A DNA stretch of 48,491 nt. It comes from Nitrospirota bacterium (GTDB taxonomy: Bacteria > Nitrospirota > Nitrospiria > Nitrospirales > Nitrospiraceae). The DNA lies in NCBI GenBank assembly GCA_022545705.1, contig JACZQN010000004.1, positions 1-48,491 on the forward strand, read 5' to 3'. A program made the position numbers. Below are positions 6,001-12,000 of the stretch, one piece after another; positions within the stretch are counted from its first letter, which is position 1; each line of letters starts with the position of its first letter.

Positions 6001-9000
6001 GTTCAGCGAGTTTTTGAGCCGCGGCTCCGGAGTCAAGGGCCTGCTGAGCGAGAGGTACGCAGGCTGCGATGGAGGAGCCCTTCCTACCCGCATACAGCAA
6101 CATTGCCGCATTTTGAATGATCCAATTCCGCTGACCGCCACGGATTTGATTGTGCAAGATTCCTCGCAGGAGTGCGGCTTCCTGGCCCATTTTTGCGCGA
6201 GGGAAGCCGGCCATCTCCCGGGGCGACCCAAGGGGCAGCCCAAGGTCCTTCGGGAGCAGCGTCAACGGGAAAATGCGCTCACCCCTGACCTCGAGCAGCT
6301 TGGTCACGCCCGCGATCGAAAGTTCGGGATCCCCCTCCACGCCGCGTAGGATCAGAGCGTGGCGGCATCCGAGCATGAGGAGCGCTTCTGCTGTCTTCTC
6401 GAAGTAGGGAGGATGGGTCAGCCCGATGACCTGTGACGGAGCTCGGGCAGGATTCAACATCCGGGCCACTGGAGAAAAGAAATTCCGCACACCGAGCTCC
6501 TGCCGGAGATCCAAAAAGCGGGCAATCGGAGGATGGTAGAGGGCGATATCCAGGTACGCGAACCCTTTGGAGGCAAGCTCCTCCACTGCCCGCTTGGGCA
6601 GGAGATCGGTCGGAATGCCTAGTTTGGCGAGCACAGGCGCGGTGCCGGGACGGTCCGGTACTGCTTCGTGCCCGTGCATCAAGATAGCGGCGCCGCCTGC
6701 CGCCGCGACAATAGCGGCTGCGATGGAGGCATGAAAGGTGTCCTGTTTCCCGGCATAAGTCGGCAGGTCCACCAGAGGAATGTGTCCCGGGACAGGAAGC
6801 GGTTCGACGTACTCGCGTACAGCCGCAGTGAAGGCGGCGAGTTCGGCGACCGACTCCACTTTGATCCGCATCGCCAGCAAGAACGCTCCCACTTGCGCGG
6901 GCGTGGCTTCCCCCTCGACCAAGAGACGCATGGCCTGCTTGGCCTCTTGCCAGGTGAGATCCTTCCAAGCTTTCTGGCCTTTTCCGACTTTGGCGATAAA
7001 GCGCTGCATTAGAATGTCAGGACCTGATCAGCTTGAGTCACTGCTTCTTTCCAGAAGGTGTCGGCGGGTTGCACTTCGCCCAGTTCAGTGATCAACTAGT
7101 CGCCCCGCAGCTCAAAACATTCGACCGAGTCGCGGCAGACGGACAACTTGGCATCACCATTCTCTTTGAGGTCGCGCAGGGTCTCCCGAATTCTCGCCTC
7201 GCGACCTCGCTAACCATCTGAAAACAAGAGCTCCTTCACCTTCTCGTTCGTCAGCTTCAGCGCGGCTTCGTCACGGAAAAGCACGCTTACCTGCGTCCCT
7301 GCCGTCGCGGCGATGCGAAGCACTTCACAAACCTGGAGCAGATTGTTATACGAGCCACGGGTGACGATCACTGCCAGTTTCTTCACGGTCTTTGACCCTC
7401 ATCTTATGGCGGGTGATGGATGATGGTGTTGAGTGATGAGTGTTGAGTTGTAAGTGAAGAATTCAAAACTCGACACTGAGAAGTCAACACGATCGATGAA
7501 CACACATTGCGCCTCACCAAATCACGACCTACTTGTGGAGCCCGCATTCTGCTTTTGAAAACTGTCTCCAGCGGCCCGCACGAGGATCTTCCCCGGGCAG
7601 CACCGGCGTGGTGCAGTGCGTGCACCCGATGCTGGGATAGTTCTGCTCGTGAAGCACGTTGTAAGGGACTTCGTGCACGCGGATATAGGCCCACACATCG
7701 GATGAGGTCCATTTCGCCAGCGGGTTCAACTTGATTAATTGGAACGTCCGATCCCACTCCATGAGGCCGGCATTGGCGCGGGTGGGCGATTGATCCCGTC
7801 TGATACCGGTGATCCAGGCCGAATACCCGTTCAGAGCCCGGGCCAGGGGTTCGATCTTGCGCAGGTGACAGCACTGATCGGGGTCGCGCGACCACAGGGC
7901 CTCCCCGTACCGAGCGGCCTGTTCCTCAGGCGTGTACTGAGAAGTGATCCGAATCACCTGATCCGGCAGCAATCCGTACTTGGCCACCAGGCGATCCCGC
8001 ACGTCATAGGTTTCTTTGAACAAGAACTCCGTGTCCAGGTAAAAAAGCGGGGTGCGAGGGTGAATCCGCTGGATCATATCTACCAGGACCACGTCCTCTG
8101 CACCAAAGCTGCATGCGAGCACAACGCGGGGCGAATAGCGCTGCAACGCAAATGCGACGACGTCTTGCGGGCTTTTGGATTCGAAGGAGTCGCTGAGCGC
8201 CTTCAGCTCCTCATCGCTTGGGCTTCGGTTGCTCTCTACAGCGGTTTCCATATTCATTCGTCAACCAGCTATTGCGGCCGATCGTGAAGGGTCAATGGTC
8301 AATCGTCATTTCGCTCCCTAACTTCTGGCTATTTTCCCTAACCCGACTATTGACTCATGACCATTGACCACCTACGCCTCAACCTTCTCCACCAGCACCC
8401 GATAGTGCGCCGCATCCGCGTCCAATGGTTCCTCAGCCAGGATCTTCTGGCCGTCATTGCGGAGGCTCATCGGCACGTTTTTGATCGGTTCACCGGCGTC
8501 AAGCCAGACTTCTAACTGCTGACCGGCATCCATCATCTCGAGCTTCAACTTGGTCTTGACATAGTTGAGCGGGCACATGACGCCTCGCAAGTCGAAGACC
8601 GTCACCCCAGCGTGAACGCCCTGCTCTGGCTCAGCCGCTGCCGCAGCAGGCCCTGCATCTTTCTGATCCGGTTGCGTCGTGGGCTCTGCTGTCCCGGTCT
8701 CCTTTGCCTTCTCGGCCTCCGCCAGTTTCAGATCCTTGCCGATCTGATCAGTGGCGGACCTGCAGGCCTCAACGAATCCGCGCGCGAAGCTTATCTTGGC
8801 AGCGGAGAACTCGGGAGTCGTGTCCTTTGGCCCCAAGTCACTCATCTGCGCGCCCAAGTGTTGGTACGAGGTTGGGACCACGCCCTTCACGGCCAGACGG
8901 CGCTCAAACTCGCTGAAGGTGTCGGCATCCGTCGCCGGATCCACCCCCTCCGTCACCAGCAAGGCCTTCGCTCCTGCGAGCACCGCACGGTAGGCCTTGT

Positions 9001-12000
9001 TGACTGAAACGGAGTATTGGTGTTTCTCGGCCAGGATGCGGGCTTGATAGAGCTCCTGTTCTGCTTCCAGCATGCGGTCGTCGATCATCTCCAGGGCCCC
9101 GCCTGCGCATTCACCCGGCCCGAGGTCCTCCATTGTGAACTCCTCTTCGCCCTCCCAGTCATAGTAATAGGTGGGATCCTTCTCAAATGGCGGCAGGATG
9201 GTGTAAGGGATCAGTTCCTCCTTGAGCTTGGCTTTGCCGGTTCGCGCGAGAAAAGCCTGGAGACCCTCCTCTGATTGCCGATCGCGGCGAAATACGGCAA
9301 GCAGGTGTGAAACGGCTGCCGGGACATTCTTGGCCGGGAGCTTCACCGTCATCTGACCAATCTTGGCGGTTCCATTTACGTGTCCTCCCAGATGCAGCTC
9401 GTAATGGGGCGCGATGTGGTCGCGCACGCGCTTCCCGACCCCGTGGAGCCCGATTGTGGCAATGTGGTGCTGGGCGCAGGAGTTGTGGCATCCGCTGATC
9501 TTCACGTCCACGCCTTTGAGGTCCTCAGGCACTTGGCCGGGTGGGAAGATTTCCGCCATCGCACGAGCCAATCCCTTCGAGGACGTAATGCCGAGGCCGC
9601 ACGTATCGGTGCCGGGGCAGGCGGTGATGTCCTCGACCAGTTCGGCACCGGGGTCAGCCAGGCCGTGTGACAGCAGGTCTGCGTAGAGATCCTCCACACG
9701 CGACTCCGGGATCCAGCGAAGGATGAGGTTCTGGTGGATGGTCGTGCGGAGGTTCCCGTTGGTATACCGTTCGGCCAGATCAGCCACGAAGTACATGTGT
9801 GAAGTGGTCATATCTCCCATCGGCAGCATGATGACTGCGGCCGCGTAGCCCTGTTGCTTCTGCTTCACAACATTGGTTCGCTTCCACGTCGCATAGGCTG
9901 TTTCGGAGCCTGAATGGCCATTGCCTTGCGCGCCGTCCCCCTGGCCGTCGTCGAGCACGCCCGGCATCTCGTCAGAGGAGGGAGAGGATGGCATGATCAG
10001 CGGCACAGGGTCGTCCTGATGGTGGAGGAGGTTGATCGGCTCCCGGCCGGGCCGGGCATGCCCCATCGCGACGTAGGCTTCTTCCCACCGCCGCTTGTAT
10101 TCCTCGAATCCCAGTTTATCGATGACAAACTTCATGCGGGCCTTGTTGCGGTTCTTCCGATTACCCAACGTGTCGAAGACCTTGATGACGGCTTCGATCG
10201 TGGGTATCAGCTCGTCCGTCGAGACAAACTCGCGCAAGACCTGGGCGATGCGGGGGGCGGACCCCAGGCCTCCGCCCACGGTCATCCGGAATCCAATCGT
10301 CCCGTCCTCGCGGCGTCCGGCGAGCAGGCCGATGTCGTGGATGGGAGTCAGGGCGCAGTCGTGGCGGCAGCCCGAGAACGCAATCTTAAATTTCCGCGGG
10401 AGGCTCTGGTTTAGGGGATTGCGAAGTAAGTGAAGAGCCACGGTGTTCGCATACGGCGTCACGTCGAAGACCTCGCCTGGACAGACCCCGGCCAAGTGGC
10501 ATGCCGTGACATTGCGTACCGTGTTGGCGCAGGCCTCACGGGTGGTCAAGCCGACCTCGGCGAGGCCCCGCATGATCGTCCCTACATCTTTGAGCAGGGC
10601 GAAATGGAGCTGAACATCCTGGCGTGTGGTGACGTGACCGACTCCGGTGGCGTACGTGTCGGCCAATTCAGCAATGCGCCGGAGTTGATTGGCCGTGAGA
10701 CCGCCAAACGGGATCTTGATGCGCACCATTTGTACGCCCGGTTGGCGCTGGCCATAAATCCCATGCTGCAAACGGAAGGGCTTGAAGAGGTCAGCCGAAA
10801 CCTCTCCCGCGTCCAGCCGTCGCACTTCGTCCTCGAAGGATTCGATCTCCTCAAGGATCGCGGGCGGGATAGGATGAGTCTTGATCTCGACAGGATGGGT
10901 TGTAGTGGAAGAAGTCATAGGGGTGTCTCCATTGCAGATGTACGATGTACAATCGCGGGTGTATCAATCTTCAATCGGAACATCCTCAATTCTCAAATGT
11001 GGTACATCAACGTGCGTTCCTGATCGAGCCGCGCGTAGCGCTCCGCCAATTCTTTCAGCGTCACCGCGCTCAGCACGCCGAGTTCCGCCTGGCGCACTTG
11101 CTCCCAGACATCGGCCAATACCAATTCCGGCTTCGACTGCCCGTGTGCGCGGCGCGCGGACATGCTGCGACGTGGCTCAGGAGAGAGCGGTCCGTCAAGT
11201 GCCTCCACGAGATCGGCCAGGGAAATGTCGGACAGTGGCCGACTGAGAAGGTAGCCGCCTTGCGCTCCTCGTACGCTCTCGACGAAGCCTGCTTTCTTCA
11301 TGGCATTGAGGACGTGTTCGAGAAAGCGAGGAGGGATCGTCTGCCGACGAGCAATGGACTTTGCCTGGACTGGAGACGTGCCATTGTTCGAGGCCAGATC
11401 GAGGGCTGCCATAATGGCGTATTTGGCTTTGAGCGAGACCTTCATATTAAATCCCAGTATTCCGATAGGAAATAAAAATAGTACCCCAATATATACAGCC
11501 CTAAGTCAGCCCTTGTCAACTACTTTCGCTCACGAGAAGGATTGCCGAGAAACTTCCATAACATCGCTTTCTGCCTAGAGAAATTCCTCACGAGTCCCGG
11601 GATACCGTACCACCAGGGTGAACTCCTAGGCCTAGGGTGATCAGCTTTGACATCCTGACCCTCACAAGAAGGGTCAGGCTTGAGCAGCGTATTGGCTGCG
11701 CCATCTGTGTTCCTGTCCAGAATTCTGAGAGAGAAGATCCGAGGAATCTCAGCGAGGCATGCGAATACGTGAGGCCGATCGGCTCAAGCCATGTGGACTC
11801 CGTGTGAAAAGATACAATACAAATCGCAAGTCAATGAAAATTGCAGGTCGGTGTTCGGCATCCGCATTGCTTTCACTGAAAAACAGGACAGCGTATTTTC
11901 CCAATTGACATGATGTGACCCTTGCGGGATAATCGCGGCTCTTCCGAGGGACCTTCGTGGCAATCCGCTCAGCCGGGTTCAGTGTTCTTCTTCTCAGCAA

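What a model noticed while it worked through the whole genome (the two positions that open the first line are those of the whole stretch)
8372..10918. Sulfite reductase fused to a TusA persulfide carrier feeds a rhodanese-less thiocarboxylate route to Cys/homocysteine
The assimilatory sulfite reductase ends in a HEPN domain and a TusA domain with its cysteine intact, in a lineage that lacks MetX and MetB/MetY but keeps a thiS-cysK-moeB-thrC-like-moaD-like-moeB-mec operon. The TusA domain captures the sulfide as a persulfide and hands it to MoeB-activated carriers, so that sulfur reaches cysteine and homocysteine without free H2S. A reductase with a built-in sulfur relay, and MetM/MetO-type methionine synthesis in nitrite oxidizers, would be new.
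Evidence so far: g01763, 848 aa: NIR_SIR x2, HEPN 615-665, TusA 775-845 (CPLN; calls 12, 63). The fused C-terminus lies in long frames (794-1234 codons) in 11 genomes of f1, f8 and f12 among 31 searched. Operon order the same in 5 of 5 relatives from four families; this genome holds its two ends (thiS-cysK C92:5201-6145; moeB-mec C61:7835-8599). PF01053 absent at E 1e-10 in 4 of 5 (one weak hit) and MetX in 5 of 5 genomes incl. G000. The moeB here matches the 271-aa rhodanese-less TtuC best.
(Added by a program. Inside this text positions count along the whole contig: contig position 1 is position 1 of the stretch shown here. "Call 12" and the like, gene names such as g00115 and contig names such as C1 are that model's own, and its searches are not shown. 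The text may have been shortened before it was handed on; [...] marks where a part breaks off. The agent that wrote the report below was given it as the finding of a first reader that could run no searches.)

Follow-up and report, generated by a model that had tools for sequence, protein, structure and literature searches.

The report
Sulfite reductase with cysteine relay tail
This bacterial gene encodes a sulfite reductase joined to a sulfur-carrier (TusA) domain, a design shared with Wolinella succinogenes and many other bacteria, and it carries an almost invariant extra cysteine that likely passes the freshly reduced sulfur to carrier proteins that would build methionine and perhaps cysteine.

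Summary
The fusion is real: 848 aa, two sulfite-reductase repeats, a weak HEPN match and TusA with Cys782. Independent contigs span it, and it is whole in 35 of 40 relatives. The eight-gene carrier operon has the same order in 20 of 20 relatives; G000 holds only its ends. MetX and MetY/MetB-type genes were found in 1 of 41 genomes. The relay is plausible: outside Nitrospirota and Nitrospinota, 11 of 14 fused reductases lie beside E1/JAB genes, against 2 of 50 unfused ones. It is not new in kind. Wolinella succinogenes has the same architecture end to end, Iyer 2006 predicted TusA replacing rhodanese in such operons, and GapMind 2026 lists the MetM-route Mec for a Nitrospirota species. The MetM-like gene occurs without the fusion in 52 of 90 genomes, and CysE plus a canonical CysK allow ordinary sulfide use. 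It lies 0-5 residues from the C-terminus in 51 of 59 short relatives and solved assimilatory reductases end before it. It may act like the DsrC arm. No transfer step was tested.

The parts
8372..10918 (-). sir: siroheme/[4Fe-4S] sulfite reductase fused to a Cys arm, a HEPN-like helical domain and TusA (848 aa)
10355..10501 (-). second four-cysteine motif in the first repeat (C140, C146, C184, C188); predicted extra Fe-S site
   Evidence: 109 of 109 close homologues; all four plus the canonical four in 71 of 147 distant ones; absent from the Wolinella protein
9476..9619 (-). canonical siroheme-[4Fe-4S] ligand motif (C434, C440, C477, C481)
   Evidence: 146-148 of 148 distant homologues per position; aligns with solved NiR/SiR
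9098..9163 (-). Cys arm, residues 586-607, with Cys604 (codon 9107-9109) in DLGPGECAGG
   Evidence: 135 of 143 spanning representatives; near the C-terminus in 51 of 59 short ones
8714..9091 (-). HEPN-fold helical domain, probably not a nuclease
   Evidence: family Cpin_6617 listed without the motif in PMC3710099
8603..8713 (-). variable, low-confidence linker (residues 736-772)
   Evidence: mean identity 0.12; pLDDT under 50 at 742-768
8381..8602 (-). TusA domain with Cys782 (codon 8573-8575) in CPLN
10993..11445 (-). Rrf2-family regulator (best NCBIfam subfamily CymR, below cut-off), first gene of the cluster
7529..8257 (-). cysH, (P)APS reductase
7012..7386 (-). broken DsrE-like gene: two in-frame stops and a 12-codon gap relative to relatives
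5927..7009 (-). TrpD-like glycosyltransferase family 3 protein, role unknown
5133..5930 (-). cysD, sulfate adenylyltransferase small subunit
3275..5374 (-). cysN with an APS-kinase-like tail (ORF from the first ATG; family matches begin near residue 90, so the true start is probably later)
2260..3225 (-). Mrp/ApbC-type Fe-S carrier ATPase

Best explanation
The gene encodes a sulfite reductase of the Wolinella succinogenes type, fused to a cysteine arm, a HEPN-fold domain and TusA, which likely reduces the sulfite made by its operon neighbours and probably hands part of the sulfur, via Cys604 and then TusA Cys782, to small carrier proteins that would be activated by two rhodanese-less MoeB enzymes. 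Shown: architecture, conserved cysteines, operon, co-occurrence. Inferred: (1) CysD/CysN and CysH supply sulfite; (2) the siroheme site reduces it, probably with ferredoxin; (3) sulfur becomes protein-bound, either because HS- opens a Cys604-Cys782 disulfide or because Cys604 catches a partly reduced sulfur as DsrC does; (4) the TusA persulfide attacks a carrier-AMP on MoeB, and a second thiol releases the thiocarboxylate; (5) Mec trims the carriers; (6) the MetM-like enzyme makes homocysteine from O-phosphohomoserine and MetH makes methionine. CysK with CysE may use free sulfide, the ThiS-like carrier, or both. The same two E1s probably also load the thiamine, molybdopterin and tRNA-thiolation carriers. 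The relay is one input among several, not an exclusive channel.
For: Sulfate-assimilation context. Cys782 and Cys604 in 109 of 109 close homologues; Cys604 in 135 of 143 distant representatives and in 119 of 120 proteins found with a Campylobacterota query; absent from 3 of 3 complete Nitrospirales NirA paralogues. E1/JAB genes lie within 6 kb of 11 of 23 fused reductases (11 of 14 outside Nitrospirota/Nitrospinota) against 2 of 50 complete unfused ones; both exceptions bring their own rhodanese. The 10 E1s directly upstream of fused reductases end 1-14 residues after the ThiF domain. Their carriers end in FLYFMGGG plus a short extension, like the Nitrospirales ThiS-like carrier. JAB-SiR-TusA triple fusions exist (P0370, P0395). 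A solo tusA lies in the metM cluster in 6 of 16 hand-picked loci of other Nitrospirota. A rhodanese gene adjoins 6 of 50 unfused reductases and 0 of 23 fused ones. The thrC-like gene lies among hom, thrC, homK and lysC in anaerobic lineages and after ahcY in family f15; a separate thrC exists in G000. ThiS-like and cysK form one frame in L033 and L134. Only two full-length E1s in 4 of 4 closed genomes.
Against: No transfer, contact or activity was shown. In Nitrospirales the reductase and carrier operons are unlinked. 52 of 90 genomes with the MetM-like gene show no fused tail, and 3 of 3 family f15 genomes tested have the carrier operon but only arm-less reductases. 44 of 50 unfused reductases have no adjacent rhodanese, so the arm need not imply a carrier. 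G000 offers other sulfur sources: 5 rhodanese matches, a solo TusA 55% identical to the fused one, and IscS- and SufS-like motifs. CysE and a canonical CysK suffice for cysteine from free sulfide. The DsrE-like gene of this operon is broken here. The MetM assignment was not tested against the Streptomyces sequence, and the gene is not in this assembly. The 80-locus sample was seeded with fused forms and holds kin.
Confidence: 0.55

Rival explanations
1. The enzyme releases free sulfide like classical assimilatory reductases; sulfide reacts directly with carrier-AMP and with CysK, and the tail only docks partners, buffers sulfide or regulates.
For: CysE over cut-off in 36 of 41 genomes and canonical CysK; the MetM-like gene persists without the fusion in 52 of 90 genomes; I recall that sulfide from Wolinella Sir sufficed to load HcyS in vitro (paper not available).
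Against: Two extra cysteines are nearly invariant across phyla, and TusA fusion tracks rhodanese-less E1 neighbours.
Confidence: 0.25
2. The TusA domain is loaded from cysteine by a desulfurase or rhodanese, not from the siroheme site; the fusion co-locates sulfur supply and demand or reports sulfur status to the reductase.
For: Solo TusA genes lie in metM clusters of lineages whose only NIR_SIR matches look like DsrA/DsrB; TusA takes persulfide from IscS in E. coli (PMC6225789); desulfurase motifs in G000.
Against: G000 and most relatives keep a separate solo TusA for that job; the tether to the reductase is kept across many phyla.
Confidence: 0.12
3. Cys604 is a structural or catalytic-tuning residue (metal or Fe-S ligand, or a lid over the active site) unrelated to sulfur hand-off.
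For: The arm is ordered in a model of a short relative (last ten residues pLDDT 82); many relatives carry an extra four-cysteine motif.
Against: Cys604 stays where the extra motif is lost, as in Wolinella; residues 601-610 are less certain in the fused model (pLDDT 62).
Confidence: 0.08

Closest known systems
Wolinella succinogenes sulfite reductase with the HcyS/HcyF/HcyD/MetY thiocarboxylate route to methionine (Krishnamoorthy and Begley 2011; seen only as cited in PMC6225789 and PMC5764234, details recalled)
   Same: W. succinogenes DSM 1740 protein CAE10106.1 (P0404, 764 aa) aligns end to end, 30% identical, with the arm cysteine and the TusA cysteine in place. Campylobacterota loci carry thiS-moeB-JAB directly before such a gene. 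That P0404 is the paper's Sir is inferred.
   Different: Here the reductase and carrier genes are in separate operons; the PLP enzymes are CysK and a MetM-like protein, not MetY; there are two carriers, two E1s and a NIL protein; the first repeat keeps four extra cysteines.
Class 4e neighbourhoods of Iyer, Burroughs and Aravind 2006 (PMC1779556, passages)
   Same: ThiS/MoaD carrier, JAB, rhodanese-less E1, SirA (TusA) predicted to replace rhodanese, sulfite reductase, PAPS reductase and ATP sulfurylase; sulfur predicted to pass to the carrier.
   Different: The passages seen name ThiS-reductase fusions in two actinobacteria, but not the TusA-reductase fusion, the arm cysteine or Nitrospirota.
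MetM/MetO/Mec/MoeZ homocysteine route of Streptomyces albulus (Hasebe 2024, seen through PMC13759103 and PMC12172450)
   Same: Second thrC-like enzyme next to a MoaD-like carrier, with Mec and an E1; no acyl-homoserine route; a HomK-like gene next to hom and thrC.
   Different: The E1s lack the rhodanese domain that MoeZ has (recalled); a NIL gene is added; activity untested; the middle genes are missing from this assembly.
DsrAB with DsrC
   Same: Siroheme reductase, a near-terminal cysteine, and a second four-cysteine site whose repeat lacks the conserved basic residues.
   Different: One chain with an assimilatory operon; one arm cysteine, not two; no homology to DsrC was tested and the DsrC mechanism is recalled.
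Solved assimilatory reductases (M. tuberculosis NirA 1zj8, maize SiR 5h8v, E. coli SiRHP)
   Same: Fold and catalytic motif.
   Different: Maize and E. coli chains end about 10-13 residues after the last aligned position (query 562-569), before the arm; no PDB match covers the arm.

Membership tests
Assimilatory siroheme sulfite reductase | Two ferredoxin-like/NIR_SIR repeats with Cx5C...Cx3C ligands in the second repeat | tested here: met
Assimilatory siroheme sulfite reductase | Basic substrate-binding residues in the first repeat (R99, R135, K176, K178; role recalled) | tested here: met
   143/144, 145/147, 146/147, 146/147 in distant homologues
Assimilatory siroheme sulfite reductase | Passes a curated NCBIfam sir, CysI or NirA model | tested here: not met
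   best 291.6 bits against cut-off 523; all 12 models below cut-off
Assimilatory siroheme sulfite reductase | Reduces sulfite rather than nitrite | not testable with these tools
   inferred from cysH/cysD/cysN neighbours and separate NirA paralogues in relatives
Wolinella-type Sir-TusA | Reductase, GEC arm, helical domain and TusA in one chain | tested here: met
Wolinella-type Sir-TusA | thiS-moeB-JAB directly upstream of the reductase | tested here: not met
   rrf2 lies upstream; the carrier genes are on other contigs
Wolinella-type Sir-TusA | MetY-type sulfhydrylase and homoserine acyltransferase | tested here: not met
   found in 1 of 41 genomes, not G000
TusA sulfurtransferase | Pfam TusA domain with the N-terminal Cys-Pro motif | tested here: met
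   CPLN rather than the recalled CPxP
TusA sulfurtransferase | Carries a persulfide on that cysteine | not testable with these tools
   needs mass spectrometry
HEPN RNase | Conserved Rx4-6H catalytic motif | tested here: inconclusive
   an R..H spacing at 627-633 in 86 of 110 sequences, in the first helix, not kept in the Wolinella protein; family listed without the motif
MetM/MetO route | thrC-like gene beside a MoaD-like carrier, with Mec and E1, plus a separate true thrC | tested here: met
   20 of 20 relatives' loci; separate thrC in G000; G000 itself lacks the middle genes
MetM/MetO route | Sequence closeness to S. albulus MetM and homocysteine synthesis in vitro | not tested
   no MetM entry among PDB matches; paper not held
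Carrier-dependent cysteine synthase (CysM/CysO type) | Closer to CysM than to CysK | tested here: not met
   TIGR01139 cysK 451 bits (cut-off 351); cysM models below cut-off; best PDB matches are O-acetylserine sulfhydrylases
DsrC-like arm | Cysteine reaches the siroheme and binds product sulfur | not testable with these tools
   model coordinates were not returned

The most novel reading that the evidence does not exclude
A large, unsolved subfamily of assimilatory sulfite reductases (Nitrospirota, Campylobacterota, Bacteroidota, Chloroflexota, Acidobacteriota, ammonia-oxidising archaea) carries its own DsrC-like cysteine arm. It catches sulfur at the siroheme and delivers it protein-bound to a fused TusA or a neighbouring rhodanese, so assimilatory reduction here ends in a persulfide rather than free sulfide. 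About half the members also keep a second Fe-S site, which would make the family a mechanistic link between dissimilatory and classical assimilatory reductases.
Probability: 0.3. Interest if true: 0.8.

Novelty: new variant of a known kind. Interest (0 to 1): 0.5.

Why it matters
If the relay is right, it answers where rhodanese-less thiocarboxylate pathways get their sulfur, and it fills the homocysteine gap of Nitrospirales, which lack the usual genes. The arm cysteine gives a sharp two-mutant test (C604S, C782S) of whether an assimilatory reductase can release protein-bound sulfur, a property so far tied to DsrAB/DsrC (from my own knowledge). It also corrects annotation: these proteins are often named only 'TusA family' or 'HEPN domain' proteins.

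Tried and rejected
Assembly chimera: rejected. Nitrospira-specific fusion: rejected; TusA is fused in 56 of 150 distant representatives, some of them fragments, and in at least seven other phyla by record titles. DsrE-like protein as an obligatory partner: rejected; broken here and absent from L003, L109, L111, L112. Other homocysteine routes: MetA and DUF39 not found in 5 of 5 genomes. Finding the operon's middle in G000 or a same-genus genome: nothing; G000 is the only genome held for its genus. The two single-chain models returned confidence only, not coordinates. A quick FastTree of the core showed fused and unfused forms interspersed, but the output was cut and no test was run, so I draw nothing from it. 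Paper searches: searches showed no listing that describes the fusion or the arm; one search showed none on Nitrospira homocysteine synthesis (20 of 51 listed); one search returned 0. Hasebe 2024 and Krishnamoorthy 2011 were not held; the 2019 TusA review (seen only as a reference) was not read and may describe the fusion.
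Full report
Observation. The ORF at 8372-10918 (-) is 848 aa. Pfam finds two NIR_SIR and two ferredoxin-like half domains, TusA at 775-845 and a marginal HEPN match at 615-665. An AlphaFold model from 112 sequences has mean pLDDT 89.7 with a low-confidence linker at 742-768; Foldseek matches it to M. tuberculosis NirA, plant and E. coli reductases, HEPN protein 2hsb and TusA/YeeD. 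The gene lies in rrf2-sir-cysH-(dsrE-like)-trpD-like-cysD-cysN-mrp. Contigs of two other runs cover 8358-10902 in one piece. A 98% identical protein is labelled Nitrospira sp.; I did not test nitrite oxidation in G000. Of 40 relatives, 35 match end to end in one frame, 4 are in pieces and 1 has no match.

Carrier operon. I took 20 of the 38 relatives with a cysK match. All 20 show thiS-like, cysK, moeB, thrC-like, moaD-like, NIL, moeB, mec in that order. G000 holds thiS-cysK at the end of C92 and moeB-mec at the end of C61; the middle was not found. The ThiS-like carrier ends in MGGG plus one residue in 18 of 20 loci and runs on into cysK in the other 2; the MoaD-like carrier has an extension after GG in 14 of 20. 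Such ends fit trimming by Mec (inference). In four closed genomes these two E1s are the only full-length ThiF matches, while G000 also has thiamine ThiS, a MoaD-MoaE-like fusion and a TtuB-like gene (names from my reading of neighbours). The E1s are therefore probably shared.

Methionine. Full-length PF01053 and MetX matches occur in 1 of 41 genomes; MetA and DUF39 in 0 of 5; MetH in 5 of 5. G000 has hom-thrC and a HomK-like gene below the curated cut-off. The thrC-like gene is in 90 of 121 genomes of the phylum. In 16 loci that I picked by hand, it lies among hom, thrC, homK and lysC in anaerobic lineages and after ahcY in family f15, and 6 have a solo tusA in the cluster. This fits MetM. It is not new for the phylum: GapMind 2026 lists Mec of Dissulfurispira thermophila as a prediction (PMC13759103, passages and supplement passages). 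It does not need the fusion: I count 42 of 121 genomes with the fused tail, and 52 of the 90 MetM-like genomes without it. Five genomes from lineages without the fusion have only two adjacent single-repeat NIR_SIR genes, which I read as DsrA/DsrB. Three f15 genomes have only distant reductases without the arm.

Cysteine. CysE passes its cut-off in 36 of 41 genomes including G000, and CysK is canonical, so free sulfide would do. Both uses remain possible.

Breadth and prior knowledge. Among the best 150 representatives at 50% identity, 56 carry TusA, 22 a helical domain only and 72 neither by my profiles. Record titles place the full fusion in Campylobacterota, Verrucomicrobiota, Proteobacteria, Acidobacteriota, Planctomycetota and Nitrospinota, and protein names add Deferribacteraceae, Calditrichaeota and Chlorobi. 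W. succinogenes DSM 1740 protein CAE10106.1 aligns over the whole length at 30%, with both extra cysteines. Wolinella is the organism of the published thiocarboxylate route to methionine (cited in PMC6225789 and PMC5764234, passages; the paper itself was not held). Iyer 2006 describes neighbourhoods of carrier, JAB, rhodanese-less E1, SirA and sulfite reductase, with SirA predicted to act like rhodanese (PMC1779556, passages). The HEPN fusion in Bacteroidetes and Nitrospirae is tabulated in PMC3710099 (passage). NCBI already names many members 'sulfurtransferase TusA family protein'.

Test of the relay by neighbours. I scanned all 80 loci (the best 80 of 598, from 3 of 64 parts of the collection, seeded with fused forms). 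Seven loci cut by a contig end were set aside; two of them have thiS-E1-JAB. E1 or JAB genes lie within 6 kb of 11 of 23 fused reductases; 9 of the 12 without are Nitrospirota or Nitrospinota, leaving 11 of 14 elsewhere. Only 2 of 50 complete unfused reductases have them; one has a rhodanese-fused E1 and the other a separate rhodanese. A rhodanese gene adjoins 6 of the 50 unfused and none of the 23 fused; four of the six are related archaea, so they are not independent. The pattern supports TusA standing in for rhodanese, as Iyer predicted, but it is correlation among kin.

Cys604, in DLGPGECAGG just after the reductase core, is kept in 109 of 109 close homologues, 135 of 143 distant representatives that span the column and 119 of 120 proteins found with a Campylobacterota query. 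In 51 of 59 representatives of 540-625 aa the protein ends 0-5 residues after it, 41 of them exactly two residues after. Such short forms occur in Chloroflexota, Acidobacteriota and ammonia-oxidising archaea. Three complete NirA paralogues of Nitrospirales lack it, and no solved chain aligns over it. A model of a short relative orders the last ten residues (pLDDT 82), but its position is unknown to me. The first repeat also keeps a full four-cysteine motif, as do 71 of 147 distant relatives, while the second repeat lacks the conserved basic residues, which suggests a non-catalytic extra cluster. Wolinella has lost that motif but kept the arm. Tyr55 and Cys130 may match the Tyr-Cys link of M. 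tuberculosis NirA (recalled, not tested). Chemically, sulfide cannot add to a lone thiol; a second cysteine solves this, by a disulfide or by DsrC-like capture. That is the most interesting lead. Searches showed no listing on it, but most subscription papers are outside the library.

Against. No binding or transfer was shown. The two operons are unlinked in Nitrospirales. G000 has other sulfur sources: five rhodanese matches including a tandem enzyme, a solo TusA 55% identical to the fused domain, and IscS- and SufS-like motifs. The DsrE-like gene of the operon is broken here, the stops are seen in other runs, and a variant that skips 7042-7524 appears in three of four runs. 44 of 50 unfused reductases have no adjacent rhodanese.

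Earlier notes of this scan reached similar readings for the fusion and the operon; they are not independent support. One prompted the DsrE check.

Verdict. Real and well conserved; a Wolinella-type reductase coupled to CysK and a MetM-like enzyme in a split arrangement. Relay via TusA: about 0.55. Exclusive channelling without free sulfide: unlikely for cysteine. New variant of a known kind, interest 0.5, mostly for the testable arm cysteine.

Noticed in passing
window 7012-7386 (-): DsrE-like gene broken by two stops and a 12-codon gap; contigs of three runs show a variant skipping 7042-7524, so the gene seems to be in the course of loss.
   Followed up: yes
window 5927-7009 (-): A TrpD-like glycosyltransferase gene sits inside the sulfate-assimilation cluster here and in several relatives; role unknown.
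   Followed up: no
window 1453-3225 (-): Mrp/ApbC Fe-S carrier and a protein with two PCP_red domains follow cysN; they may help mature the reductase's clusters.
   Followed up: no
L030:4827-5069 and most MetM-like loci: A stand-alone NIL-domain gene follows the MoaD-like carrier in 20 of 20 Nitrospirales loci and most loci of other families.
   Followed up: partly
L033:1280-2395; L134:2130-3422: ThiS-like carrier and CysK are encoded in one reading frame.
   Followed up: partly
L083, L088, L091, L095, L099: Reductases ending in GECAA overlap a tandem rhodanese gene with the motif YCGSVGTL; L099 is titled Phycisphaerae but looks like the archaeal loci.
   Followed up: partly
proteins P0370, P0395: 928-aa proteins that join a JAB peptidase, the reductase and TusA.
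   Followed up: no
G000 C70:3519-3887: Solo TusA 55% identical to the fused domain, near ccsA-like and hemA genes, in a similar place in three relatives.
   Followed up: partly
G019 C4:74943-77380: The only relative of 40 with adjacent PF01053 and MetX genes.
   Followed up: no
window 12746-12820 (+) and about 12000-12550: tRNA-Val(GAC) before thrS; the stretch upstream on the + strand looks like a Fis-type regulator by eye, not tested.
   Followed up: no
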